A stretch of DNA of 64,000 nucleotides, from IMG/VR virus record IMGVR_UViG_3300035696_000002; one strand, 5' to 3'. A program made the position numbers and the translations under genes. Origin of the DNA: a virus (lineage: Duplodnaviria; Heunggongvirae; Uroviricota; Caudoviricetes). Shown here piece after piece: positions 23,464 to 29,800 of this stretch (position 1 is its first letter; every line of letters begins with the position of its first letter). The notes under the pieces were generated by a model, which ran no database searches, was not told the DNA's origin, and saw nothing but the letters and a program-made list of their open reading frames with translations.

Positions 23464-23553
23464 TCGAAGATGACGGAATGGTAGACGTGGCACCGCAAAA
23501 TGGTTCTGTAGCTATTAAGACGCTACGTGTGGGTTCGAGTCCCACTCTTCGTT
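23464..23553 (+). pseudogene. degenerate tRNA-Leu-like gene
   Basis: Leu-type D-arm, long V-arm and T-arm intact; anticodon stem mismatched, loop GCAAAAT lacks U33, 1:72 mismatch, no CCA. Confidence 0.6.
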
Positions 23554-27035: not shown

Positions 27036-27065
27036 TTGACAAAAAGCCCGACTTCCGGGTATCTT
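27036..27065 (+). promoter_or_regulatory. sigma70-like promoter of tRNA array 2
   Basis: TTGACA-18 nt-TATCTT. Confidence 0.7.
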
Positions 27066-27208: not shown

Positions 27209-27298
27209 CGGGATGTAGACGGGTAAATGGAAGCCCCCGTGCTTTGGATGCACGTACCCTTAGTGGTCTTGGGAGTTCGAGTCTCCCCATCCCGACCA
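27209..27298 (+). tRNA. atypical tRNA-Pro(TGG) with long variable arm
   Basis: CGGGATG/CATCCCG (C1:G72, A73), CGTGC-TTTGGAT-GCACG, 16-nt variable region, T-arm, CCA; extended TAGAC connector. Confidence 0.8.
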
Positions 27299-27322
27299 AA
27301 TTTTTTAGATTCAACGATTTAA

Positions 27323-27415
27323 CGGTGTGTAGAACGGTAACTTGGTAGCCGTCCAGCTTCGGATGCTGGTGCCCGAATAGTGGCCCTGTAGGTTCGAATC
27401 CTATCACGCCGACCA
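27323..27415 (+). tRNA. atypical tRNA-Pro(CGG) with long variable arm
   Basis: CGGTGTG/CACGCCG, CCAGC-TTCGGAT-GCTGG, 18-nt variable region, T-arm, CCA; TAGA connector. Confidence 0.8.
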
Positions 27416-27830
27416 TTGGAGTGTTCGCACGGAGAGTGGCCAACAGCCTGAACACGTGACCCGAAAAGCGGGGCAACCCGGATACGGGCATAAAGCTCTC
27501 CAACGAAATGATGCGGGGTTCGCCGGACGTACCCGGCGACGCAAGCGGGTGGTTACATCCGGCCCCCTAGCGAGTCAGTGGTGGAGCGGTCGCTCTTGGT
27601 CGCCGGGTGTCCGGCTGAGTGGCCGTGCTTAAGTGCCGAGGAGTGGTTGACCGACCGACACCGGATACCGCTCGACAGGTCGCCCGTAATTTGCTGAGGT
27701 AGATGCTTTGTGGTCATGCTGCCTGAGGAGCCCCGATTGCCATGGCAATCGGCAAGCACAAGGGGTGCCCCTGACAAAAGCGTCGGATGGAAGATCAGCC
27801 GCCATCGTGGCCATGAGGCTGGAAATTTTA
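27416..27830 (+). ncRNA. candidate large structured RNA (about 410 nt)
   Basis: No credible + strand ORF; multiple long-range stems; 20-bp perfect palindrome; bounded by tRNAs. Confidence 0.45.
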
Positions 27831-27831
27831 A

Positions 27832-27906
27832 CGGCGTGTAGCTCAGAGGAAGAGTTCTCGTCTGGGGGACGAGGGGTCGGGATTTCGAAATTCCCCACGC
27901 CGACCA
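27832..27906 (+). tRNA. tRNA-Pro(GGG)
   Basis: CGGCGTG/CACGCCG, CTCGT-CTGGGGG-ACGAG, CCA; T-arm deviant (GGGAT-TTCGAAA-TTCCC). Confidence 0.85.
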
Positions 27907-27910
27907 TTTT

Positions 27911-28129
27911 ATGGAGAACGCATTACAACTCGCGGACTGGTTCCACATTCGATGCTCAAGCAAAAAGAGTGGACATCCGGTGTTCGTGGCAGCCTTGAAG
28001 CAGTGGCAATGCACACGCTGCAAGTCAGCATGGAACTGTGATGAAGACCAGTTTCTCGTGTATCTCCAGCGTACTGTTTTTGAGGTTCGAAAAGATGAAG
28101 ATGATCCGCTGGTTCCGGGGCCTGTTTAG
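27911..28129 (+). CDS. small Cys-containing hypothetical protein
   Basis: 72 aa with CTRC...C, inside the tRNA array. Confidence 0.45.
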   Translation: MENALQLADWFHIRCSSKKSGHPVFVAALKQWQCTRCKSAWNCDEDQFLVYLQRTVFEVRKDEDDPLVPGPV

Positions 28130-28161
28130 CAAATATCGGCCCGTAGGGAAATTTTAAGTTT

Positions 28162-28238
28162 CAGGATGTAGCTCAGCTTGGTAGAGTCCTCGCCTCGGAT
28201 GCGAGTGGTCGCAGGTTCAAATCCTGCCATCCTGACCA
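28162..28238 (+). tRNA. tRNA-Pro(CGG), canonical
   Basis: CAGGATG/CATCCTG, CTCGC-CTCGGAT-GCGAG, CCA. Confidence 0.95.
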
Positions 28239-28323: not shown

Positions 28324-28396
28324 GTGACTGTAGCTCAGGGGTAGAGCACCGGGGTTGGCCCGGAGTGCGGCGGTTCGAGTCCGTCCAGCCAGACCA
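28324..28396 (+). pseudogene. degenerate tRNA-Pro(TGG)-like gene with 5-nt anticodon loop
   Basis: D-arm, T-arm and CCA intact; CCGGG-GTTGG-CCCGG; two acceptor mismatches. Confidence 0.6.
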
Positions 28397-29718: not shown

Positions 29719-29800
29719 TGCGGGCGAGTGGATGGGATACATAGACCATACAACGCTCATAACGTTGTGATTGCGGGTTCGACTCCCGCGTCCGCACCCA
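29719..29800 (+). tRNA. atypical tRNA(CAT) with C73 and 14-nt D-loop
   Basis: TGCGGGC/GTCCGCA, discriminator C, CCA; CAACG-CTCATAA-CGTTG; GCGGG-TTCGACT-CCCGC. Confidence 0.75.

What the first reader, a model, noticed from the sequence alone, without database searches (positions are those of the whole stretch)
27209..27415. Two tRNA-Pro genes sharing a non-canonical architecture (long V-arm, TAGA connector)
Seen: both keep Pro identity marks (C1:G72, A73, NGG) and CCA but are 90 and 93 nt. Both have a TAGA(C) connector instead of 2 nt before the D-stem, a D-loop starting TAA, and a 16-18 nt variable region with shared CC...TAGTGG.C.T (stems ACC/GGT and GCC/GGC). Established: bacterial long V-arms are normally confined to Leu, Ser, Tyr and Sec. 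The same deviation in two isoacceptors suggests selection rather than decay. Inference: a distinct structural class, possibly evading nucleases, or charged by a non-ProRS enzyme (SerRS reads long V-arms), which would cause mistranslation.
Basis: partly seen in the sequence, partly recalled or inferred. Interest (0 to 1): 0.78.

Follow-up and report, generated by a model that had tools for sequence, protein, structure and literature searches.

The report
Phage proline tRNAs with extra arm
Two real proline tRNA genes of a 463-kb phage belong to a conserved, apparently undescribed phage family that breaks textbook tRNA shape rules (extra hairpin arm, four-base linker, A at position 37) yet most likely still carries proline.

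Summary
Window 27209-27298 (anticodon UGG, 90 nt) and 27323-27415 (CGG, 93 nt) are tRNA genes with C1:G72, A73 and encoded CCA. Both have a 4-nt U-A-G-A linker, a D stem lengthened by a pair that uses nucleotide 26, and a 16-18-nt variable region with a 3-bp hairpin. Rfam's tRNA model misses both.

They are not a local oddity. The window lies in a 463-kb IMG/VR phage with 68 tRNA genes. A covariance model found 58 distinct relatives on viral and metagenome contigs, often as the same UGG-then-CGG tandem. About 99% of cells pair, 18-19 of 24 pairs show compensatory changes, and 0 of 500 shuffles match this. All aligned members have A73, G35, G36 and A37; 24 of 27 ordinary phage tRNA-Pro have G37.

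No member turned up in a pattern scan of 185,579 prokaryote species genomes. Cultured phages got only two blastn queries plus model searches of five records.

The body most resembles phage class II tRNA-Tyr with the same linker. One relative's acceptor and T arm look like ordinary tRNA-Pro by eye.

CCA and CCG codons align to proline in homologues, and the phage has no ProRS. Best reading: cognate, host-charged proline tRNAs of a remodelled class. SerRS mischarging is not supported; nuclease evasion is untested.

Earlier scan notes report similar long-arm phage tRNAs on other genomes.

The parts
27036..27065 (+). Promoter-like site (TTGACA, 18 nt, TATCTT) about 145 nt upstream of the first long tRNA-Pro; possible start of the Pro/Met/Phe tRNA transcription unit
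   Evidence: 10 of 12 consensus matches, but 1 site found against 1.2 expected in shuffles. A consensus match only.
27209..27298 (+). Long tRNA-Pro(UGG), 90 nt. Acceptor 27209-27215 / 27288-27294; linker TAGA 27216-27219; D arm 27220-27237 (basal C.C, three G:C pairs, U.G); anticodon arm 27238-27254 (anticodon 27245-27247, A37 at 27248); variable arm 27255-27270; T arm 27271-27287; A73 at 27295; CCA 27296-27298
   Evidence: minimum-energy fold is this cloverleaf; 106 bits to R1
27323..27415 (+). Long tRNA-Pro(CGG), 93 nt. Acceptor 27323-27329 / 27405-27411; linker TAGA 27330-27333; D arm 27334-27352 (ACGGU/GCCGU, no free nt 26); anticodon arm 27353-27369 (anticodon 27360-27362, A37 at 27363); variable arm 27370-27387; T arm 27388-27404; A73 at 27412; CCA 27413-27415
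   Evidence: (114 bits)
27832..27906 (+). Ordinary-shaped tRNA-Pro(GGG), 75 nt, G37 (comparison copy in the same array)
   Evidence: (Rfam tRNA 46.6 bits)
28162..28238 (+). Ordinary-shaped tRNA-Pro(CGG), 77 nt, unusually with A37. By eye its acceptor stem, anticodon loop and T arm resemble the long CGG type of sister phages
   Evidence: (Rfam tRNA 64.5 bits)

Best explanation
Both genes are functional phage tRNAs of a conserved, phage-borne family of class-II-shaped proline tRNAs.

Shown:
- The fold is a 7-bp acceptor stem, a U-A-R-A linker, a 5-bp D stem whose basal pair uses nucleotide 26, a normal anticodon arm with NGG and A37, a 3-bp variable hairpin, and a normal T arm.
- This fold is kept by compensatory changes across 58 distinct sequences.
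- All elbow and core nucleotides (U8, A14, G18, G19, A21, T54, T55, C56, A58) and the proline identity marks (A73, G35, G36, nearly always C1:G72) are conserved.

Inferred:
- They are transcribed with the array, matured, and charged with proline by the host ProRS, since the phage has none.
- They read CCA and CCG, which make up 65% of the phage's proline codons. The UGG copy is the phage's only UGG isoacceptor.
- The body arose by remoulding a phage class II tRNA-Tyr-type scaffold that has the same TAGA linker, or by recombination with one. The acceptor stem, T arm and anticodon remained proline-type.
- A37 removes dependence on TrmD (m1G37).
- Whether the odd core also protects against tRNA-targeting nucleases is open.
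For: Genes and fold.

Family and covariation:
- 19 distinct viral sequences: 99.3% of cells paired, 19 of 24 pairs with changes on both sides, 0 of 500 shuffles as high.
- 49 distinct metagenome sequences: 99.1% paired, 18 of 24 pairs, 0 of 500.
- RNAalifold predicted the same structure plus an invariant U13.G22 pair, though on the model-fitted alignment A5.
- The extra N:26 pair is A:U in 27, U:A in 20, other in 2.

Conserved nucleotides. All 49 have A37 and A73; 47 of 49 have C1:G72.

A37 against G37: every long copy has A37, while 24 of 27 ordinary phage tRNA-Pro have G37.

Tandem UGG-then-CGG unit in relatives.

Decoding:
- CCG is 49% and CCA 16% of proline codons.
- No ordinary Pro(UGG) gene or remnant was found.
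- Aligned to Pro in Tunturi_5 homologues: CCA 10 of 24, CCG 49 of 88, CCT 10 of 20, CCC 10 of 20. None aligned to Tyr.

No phage ProRS: PF00587 finds only two truncated HisRS/GlyRS-like ORFs.

Origin: the nearest non-family tRNAs are TAGA-linker phage tRNA-Tyr(GUA) at 67-78% identity, against 64-71% for ordinary Pro. By eye, the acceptor stem and T arm of L028 CGG90 nearly match the ordinary Pro(CGG) of sister phages.

Proline identity set: PMC9976931.
Against:
- A37 replaces G37, which together with its methylation contributes to prolylation in E. coli (PMC9976931).
- The Levitt pair is A15 or G15 with U48, not the G15:C48 listed as a proline determinant.
- The window's UGG copy has a C.C mismatch at the basal D-stem pair.
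- Covariation in the variable stem shows that the RNA must fold, not that the arm has an adaptive role.
- The host and its ProRS type are unknown. Acidobacteriota is only inferred from 43% DNA-polymerase identity and gene order shared with Tunturiibacter phage Tunturi_5.
Confidence: 0.7

Rival explanations
1. Deliberate mistranslation. The class-II-like body makes LeuRS, TyrRS or SerRS charge these tRNAs, so CCA and CCG are partly read as Leu, Tyr or Ser, as proposed for nematode nev-tRNAs.
For: The body is closest to phage class II tRNA-Tyr. From textbook knowledge, A73 is also the discriminator of tRNA-Leu and tRNA-Tyr. The window's copies have A15 and U48. A precedent exists: class II tRNAs with anticodons that are neither Leu nor Ser in nematodes (PMC3333845, abstract).
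Against: - C1:G72, G35 and G36 are conserved across 58 sequences.
- The variable stem has only 3 pairs and the discriminator is A73, which speaks against SerRS.
- The anticodon is not GUA, which speaks against TyrRS (textbook knowledge).
- The codons concerned are 65% of all proline codons and behave as proline in alignments, with 0 Tyr, 2 Leu and 4 Ser among 112.
- Other long-arm tRNAs of the phage carry different discriminators that, from textbook knowledge, fit their own amino acids.
Confidence: 0.07
2. Special decoding. A37 instead of m1G37, together with the altered core, makes these tRNAs prone to +1 slippage, so they serve programmed frameshifting at CC-rich sites. Alternatively they let the phage translate when host TrmD or m1G37 is limiting.
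For: A37 is invariant in the long family but rare in ordinary phage tRNA-Pro. [quoted passage not shown]
Against: No frameshift sites were sought or found. The anticodon loop has the normal 7 nt. A37 also occurs in three ordinary-shaped phage tRNA-Pro(CGG), so it is not tied to the fold. Bypass of TrmD fits ordinary decoding and is already part of the best explanation.
Confidence: 0.08
3. Not primarily translational. The tRNAs act as decoys or sponges for host tRNA-targeting defence nucleases or other tRNA-binding factors, or as regulatory RNAs of the array.
For: The same phage encodes anticodon-less tRNA look-alikes and several other oddly shaped tRNAs. Phage tRNAs are known to counter tRNA-cleaving defences (PMC11555353, abstract).
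Against: Anticodon, identity elements and CCA are all strictly conserved, which a decoy would not need. It is the only UGG isoacceptor in this phage. In several of the short loci fetched from smaller phage contigs it is the only tRNA-Pro seen.
Confidence: 0.1
4. Decaying or neutral duplicates: pseudogenes that picked up insertions.
For: A C.C mismatch in the D stem of the UGG copy. Rfam's tRNA model fails on both.
Against: 58 distinct homologues with 99% pairing and compensatory changes; invariant tertiary nucleotides; a tandem arrangement conserved across phages whose DNA polymerases are only about 59% identical.
Confidence: 0.02

Closest known systems
Bacterial tRNA-Pro (class I)
   Same: C1:G72, A73, G35, G36, CGG-type acceptor stem, 7/5 acceptor/T branch, normal T loop and D-loop G18 G19. 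By eye, the top half of the long CGG-type copy L028 nearly matches the ordinary phage tRNA-Pro(CGG) of sister phages.
   Different: 4-nt linker instead of 2 nt; nucleotide 26 paired; a 13-18-nt variable region with a hairpin instead of 4-5 nt; A37 instead of G37; U48 instead of C48; below Rfam's tRNA threshold.
Phage class II tRNA-Tyr(GUA) and tRNA-Ser(UGA) with the D arm TAGA-GCGU...GCGU
   Same: The same U-A-G-A linker, D-loop sequence, short variable hairpin and T arm; 67-78% identity to the long tRNA-Pro, the nearest non-family tRNAs.
   Different: GUA or UGA anticodon, mostly G1:C72, nucleotide 26 unpaired. Two (L013, L102) already have C1:G72 with A73, and look like intermediates between the two identities.
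nev-tRNAs of nematodes (PMC3333845)
   Same: A class II shape combined with an anticodon of an amino acid that normally uses class I tRNAs.
   Different: From my own knowledge of that paper, nev-tRNAs keep a tRNA-Leu body and identity and are charged with Leu. Here the acceptor stem and anticodon are proline-type and the codons behave as proline. Eukaryotic against phage.
allo-tRNAs and (8/4) tRNAs of bacteria and phages (Mukai et al., PMC5389517)
   Same: Non-canonical cloverleaves with a long variable arm, found in bacteria and phage tRNA clusters.
   Different: Defined by an 8/4 or 9/3 acceptor/T branch and a Sec-like D arm, with G73 or U73 pointing to SerRS. The present family is 7/5 with A73 and a normal-sized D loop.
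Long-arm non-class-II phage tRNAs noted earlier in this scan on other genomes (e1-1705740, e1-1857796, e1-1602887, e1-1693754)
   Same: An extra hairpin arm on tRNAs for Pro, Asn, Arg, Thr and others in phage tRNA arrays; judged to keep cognate identity; not found in the literature.
   Different: No sequence look-alike of this pair was indexed. The earlier 96-nt Pro(UGG) is described as having a Ser-type body. The U-A-R-A linker, paired nucleotide 26 and invariant A37 are specific to the family described here.

Membership tests
Canonical class I tRNA-Pro | Proline identity set: C1:G72, A73, G35, G36 | tested here: met
   both window genes have it. 47 of 49 metagenome members have C1:G72; all have A73, G35 and G36. 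The set is as listed in PMC9976931.
Canonical class I tRNA-Pro | 2-nt linker (8, 9), 4-bp D stem, free nucleotide 26, 4-5-nt variable loop | tested here: not met
   4-nt linker, 5-bp D stem that uses nucleotide 26, 13-18-nt variable region with a covarying 3-bp stem.
Canonical class I tRNA-Pro | G37 (m1G37 site) | tested here: not met
   A37 in every family member.
Rfam tRNA (RF00005) | Score at or above the gathering threshold of 29 bits | tested here: not met
   no RF00005 hit on either gene even at E<=1.
Class II tRNA (Leu/Ser/Tyr) | Variable arm with a base-paired stem | tested here: met
   a 3-bp stem, with all 3 pairs showing changes on both sides.
Class II tRNA (Leu/Ser/Tyr) | Leu, Ser or Tyr anticodon and the matching identity elements | tested here: not met
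   The anticodon is UGG or CGG in all members. The codons behave as proline.
allo-tRNA / (8/4) tRNA | 8/4 or 9/3 acceptor/T branch | tested here: not met
   a 7-bp acceptor stem and 5-bp T stem. Nucleotide 8 (U) faces C and cannot extend the stem.
tRNA-Sec (RF01852) | Gathering score of 47 bits; UCA anticodon; 8/5 branch; 6-bp D stem | tested here: not met
   23.5 bits on the CGG copy only. Anticodon and stems differ.
Functional, aminoacylated tRNA | Expressed, end-processed and charged | not testable with these tools
This is supported only indirectly by conservation.

The most novel reading that the evidence does not exclude
The U-A-R-A linker, paired nucleotide 26, extra arm and A37 define a 'private' phage tRNA class. 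It would still be charged by host ProRS, but would escape host factors that act on ordinary tRNA-Pro (tRNA-cleaving defence nucleases, or the need for TrmD). It would have been built by grafting proline identity onto a tyrosine-type class II body. The same scaffold has been re-used for Asn, Gln and Tyr anticodons, which would make it a natural toolkit for identity swapping and near-orthogonal tRNAs.
Probability: 0.22. Interest if true: 0.82.

Novelty: new variant of a known kind. Interest (0 to 1): 0.62.

Why it matters
The textbook rule is that in bacteria only Leu, Ser, Tyr and Sec tRNAs have a long variable arm, and that tRNA-Pro always has G37. This family breaks both rules, and it adds a lengthened linker and a paired nucleotide 26 while keeping proline identity.

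If the tRNAs are charged with proline, three things follow:
- ProRS, EF-Tu and the ribosome tolerate a much wider tRNA core than assumed.
- There is a natural example of identity change between Tyr and Pro on one scaffold.
- It offers candidate scaffolds for engineered tRNAs.

There is also a practical point. Rfam-style models miss these genes, so phage tRNA repertoires are under-counted.

Tried and rejected
- The first pattern, from the shared variable-arm/T-arm motif, mostly hit ordinary phage tRNA-Leu. It yielded one relevant relative, L013.
- 8/4, 9/3 and Sec-like folds: rejected by reading the sequence and.
- An intron or spliced segment: the extra nucleotides lie in the 8-9 linker and the variable region, not in the anticodon loop. 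They covary as a stem, so nothing suggests splicing.
- A remnant of an ordinary Pro(UGG) gene in the window's spacers: none.
- Prokaryote genomes: the pattern scan of 185,579 species gave 24 chance hits, none matching the model at E<=1e-8.
- Cultured phages: blastn with a UGG-type member found nothing. The window pair found only partial T-arm matches. The model found no member in Tunturi_3, Tunturi_4, Tunturi_5, UNO-G1W1 or XD2.
- 'Relatives' cannot be drawn for a virus record, so host tRNAs were not examined.
- Six literature searches found no description of this family.
- No structure-prediction or complex job was run, because none applies to RNA.

Full report
**1. The observation**

ARAGORN finds 17 tRNA genes in the window, all on the + strand between 22.4 and 30.8 kb. 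They include tRNA-Pro(tgg) at 27209-27298 (90 nt) and tRNA-Pro(cgg) at 27323-27415 (93 nt).

- a 7-bp acceptor stem with C1:G72, then A73 and encoded CCA;
- TAGA directly after the acceptor stem;
- a D loop beginning T-A-A;
- a normal 5-bp anticodon stem and 7-nt loop;
- a 16- or 18-nt variable region with 3-bp stems (ACC/GGT, GCC/GGC) and the shared TAGTGG motif;
- a normal T arm.

The minimum-energy fold of each RNA is this cloverleaf, but neither sequence folds significantly better than its shuffles (z -1.6 and -1.3).

Rfam's tRNA model reports neither gene, even at E<=1. The second gets only a sub-threshold tRNA-Sec hit of 23.5 bits against a threshold of 47. Ten other tRNAs of the window score 50-64 bits.

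**2. Setting**

The window is bases 318836-382835 of a 463,033-bp IMG/VR virus record judged complete. ARAGORN finds 68 tRNA genes and a tmRNA call in five arrays. The genes flanking the array include an AAA ATPase, a NADAR protein, a primase and a family A DNA polymerase.

The closest cultured relative by DNA polymerase is the 309-kb jumbo phage Tunturi_5 of Tunturiibacter (Acidobacteriota), at 43% identity over 76% of the protein. It has the same primase, polymerase and portal gene order (PMC11924767). An acidobacterial host is therefore an inference, not a finding.

**3. A conserved family**

I built a covariance model (R1) from the two genes. In the phage itself it scores them at 114 and 106 bits. 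Next come a long tRNA-Asn (57 bits) and a long tRNA-Gln (50 bits), then the ordinary tRNA-Pro(CGG) (49.5 bits).

Phages whose DNA polymerase is about 59% identical carry an adjacent pair, Pro(UGG) of 87 nt followed by Pro(CGG) of 90 nt, with the same architecture. Pattern scans followed by R1 gave:
- 19 distinct sequences on IMG/VR contigs;
- 49 distinct sequences on metagenome contigs;
- 58 distinct sequences in all.

The UGG-then-CGG tandem recurs on many contigs.

*Covariation.* On the viral set, 99.3% of cells pair and 19 of 24 pairs change on both sides. No shuffle out of 500 reaches the observed value, and sliding the partners drops pairing to 39-47%. The metagenome set gives 99.1%, 18 of 24 pairs and 0 of 500.

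RNAalifold predicted the same structure and added an invariant U13.G22 pair. It ran on the alignment fitted to my model, so this is only partly independent.

The fold that results:
- acceptor stem of 7 bp;
- linker U-A-R-A (TAAA in 28, TAGA in 20, TAGC in 1 of the 49);
- D stem of 5 bp, whose basal pair uses the nucleotide that is normally free at position 26 (A:U 27, U:A 20, other 2);
- D loop of 8-9 nt;
- anticodon stem directly abutting the D stem;
- variable region of 13-18 nt with a 3-bp stem in which all three pairs covary;
- T stem of 5 bp.

The window's UGG copy has C.C at the basal D-stem pair.

*Invariant positions*: U8, A9, the fourth linker A, A14, G18, G19, A21, U33, G35, G36, A37, U48, T54, T55, C56, A58 and A73. 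The elements that build the L-shape are therefore intact.

**4. A37**

Every long tRNA-Pro has A37. Of 27 ordinary-shaped phage tRNA-Pro in the same loci, 24 have G37.

G37 and its methylation contribute to prolylation and suppress frameshifting in E. coli (PMC9976931). The family therefore departs from one proline determinant, and it cannot be a TrmD substrate at position 37.

**5. Distribution**

The D-arm/anticodon pattern scan over one genome for each of 185,579 prokaryote species gave 24 hits. None matched R1 at E<=1e-8.

In 50,697 deposited phage records, blastn found nothing for a UGG-type member. For the window pair it found only partial T-arm matches. R1 found no member in Tunturi_3, Tunturi_4, Tunturi_5 or two Pseudomonas phages.

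Within these limits the family is known only from uncultured phage and metagenome contigs. Both exclusions are narrow: an exact pattern for the genomes, and two blastn queries plus five model searches for the cultured phages.

**6. Origin**

Global alignment against 489 distinct tRNAs from all fetched loci shows the nearest non-family sequences. They are phage class II tRNA-Tyr(GUA) carrying the same TAGA linker and D arm, at 67-78% identity. Ordinary tRNA-Pro are at 64-71% (D-arm scan). That D arm also occurs on tRNA-Ser(UGA).

Two tRNA(GUA) genes (L013, L102) already have C1:G72 with A73. By eye, the acceptor stem, anticodon loop and T arm of one long CGG type (L028) nearly match the ordinary tRNA-Pro(CGG) of sister phages.

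The simplest reading is a proline top half and anticodon on a tyrosine-type class II lower half, produced by remoulding or by recombination within tRNA arrays. This is an inference from similarity. Trees of sequences this short would not be reliable, and none was built.

**7. Which amino acid?**

Evidence for proline:
- The identity set is conserved (section 3).
- The phage has no ProRS. PF00587 finds only a 204-aa HisRS-like and a 239-aa GlyRS/HisRS-like fragment.
- CCG and CCA are 49% and 16% of proline codons in 205 long ORFs.
- The UGG copy is the only UGG isoacceptor of the phage, and no remnant of an ordinary one exists in the spacers.
- In four proteins aligned to Tunturi_5 homologues, which lack the family, codons align to proline as follows: CCA 10 of 24, CCG 49 of 88, CCT 10 of 20, CCC 10 of 20. 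None aligns to Tyr, 2 to Leu and 4 to Ser among the 112 CCA and CCG codons.
- The other long-arm tRNAs of the phage (Asn, Gln, Arg, Thr) carry different discriminators (G, G, A, U) and different first pairs. From textbook knowledge these fit their own amino acids. One shared class II synthetase would not need that.

Evidence against SerRS: a 3-bp arm and A73, whereas G73 or U73 plus a long arm is what points to SerRS (PMC5389517).

LeuRS or TyrRS mischarging at a low level cannot be excluded by computation.

**8. Why the shape?**

This is not shown. Three possibilities, all inferences:
- It is historical, inherited from the Tyr-type scaffold. Covariation then only reflects the need to fold.
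- The R-A insertion may replace contacts that variable-loop bases normally make in the D-stem groove.
- The altered core and A37 may make the tRNA independent of TrmD, or resistant to tRNA-targeting defences, as shown for other phage tRNAs (PMC11555353).

**9. Comparison and novelty**

The family fails the defining features of class I tRNA-Pro, allo-tRNAs, tRNA-Sec and nev-tRNAs, while still working like a tRNA-Pro. Six literature searches found no description of it.

Earlier notes of this scan report long-arm non-class-II phage tRNAs on other genomes, including a 96-nt Pro(UGG) on a Ser-type body. None shares sequence with this pair. The general phenomenon has therefore been seen before in the scan. 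The particular family, its linker, the paired nucleotide 26, the invariant A37 and the Tyr-type origin are what this report adds.

**10. Limits**

- Host tRNAs were not examined.
- Alignments A5 and A6 were fitted to the model, which favours its structure.
- Family members were found through patterns, so divergent members are missed and D-stem invariance is partly imposed by the search.

Noticed in passing
Outside the window: G000:89428-89514, 89864-89951, 93461-93548, c235270-235355 (L019, L020): Four more long-arm tRNAs with class I anticodons: Asn(GUU) 87 nt on the same TAGA scaffold, Gln(CUG) 88 nt, and Arg(CCU) 88 nt and Thr(UGU) 86 nt with ordinary D arms. Asn, Arg and Thr have GAAA-capped variable stems. 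Their discriminators and first pairs differ from one another.
   Followed up: partly
window 23464-23553: A 90-nt tRNA-like gene called Phe(AAA). It has a long variable arm, a T.T at pair 1:72 and no CCA, and Rfam's tRNA model does not score it. It sits among the tRNA-Leu genes and may be a degenerate or specialised Leu-type copy.
   Followed up: no
Outside the window: G000 c239197-239272, c239593-239667, 90309-90376: tRNA look-alikes with normal acceptor, D and T arms and a 3'-terminal CCA (the 90309-90376 copy ends in CCCCCA). In each, the anticodon loop is replaced by a closed hairpin (a GAAA tetraloop or a triloop), so there is no anticodon.
   Followed up: no
Outside the window: G000 c238747-239065: Three tRNAs with a CUA (amber-reading) anticodon in a row. 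TAG still ends 29 of 205 long ORFs, so any TAG recoding would be partial or limited to some genes.
   Followed up: no
Outside the window: L043:1318-1932 (G000 about 87826-88440) and L044:1225-1944 (G000 about 304511-305230): Two truncated class II aminoacyl-tRNA-synthetase-like ORFs inside tRNA arrays. One is a 204-aa HisRS N-terminal fragment next to two tRNA-His genes. The other is a 239-aa GlyRS/HisRS-like core fragment in the Val/Gly/Ala array.
   Followed up: partly
Outside the window: G000:64400-64476: A 77-nt tRNA-Leu(UAA) without the long variable arm. Short-arm Leu tRNAs also occur in related contigs.
   Followed up: no
L013:664-752:-, L102:4017-4105:-, L036 c1501-1583: In other phage contigs, tRNA(GUA) genes on the same scaffold have the proline-like C1:G72 and A73. 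A Leu-type tRNA(CAA) carries the acceptor stem CGGGATG, identical to that of the window's long Pro(UGG). These suggest acceptor-stem swapping among array tRNAs.
   Followed up: partly
L106:4000-4088 (PP551948.2) and L107:4000-4088 (PQ288046.1): The cultured Pseudomonas phages UNO-G1W1 and XD2 carry an identical 89-nt tRNA-Asn(GUU) with a long variable region and a 3-nt linker. It is annotated simply as tRNA-Asn in one record and not annotated in the other. This is a tractable model for the wider long-arm class.
   Followed up: partly
window 27416-27831 and 27907-28161: Two spacers, of 416 and 255 nt, free of both tRNAs and ORFs, lie between the proline tRNA genes. Related phages have short spacers and an ordinary Pro(UGG) gene in this stretch.
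   Followed up: partly
window 28324-28396 and 29723-29800: tRNA-Gln(UUG) has a G.G at pair 1:72 and an A/C mismatch. A 78-nt CAU tRNA has several acceptor-stem mismatches and a poor D arm, and is not scored by Rfam's tRNA model.
   Followed up: no
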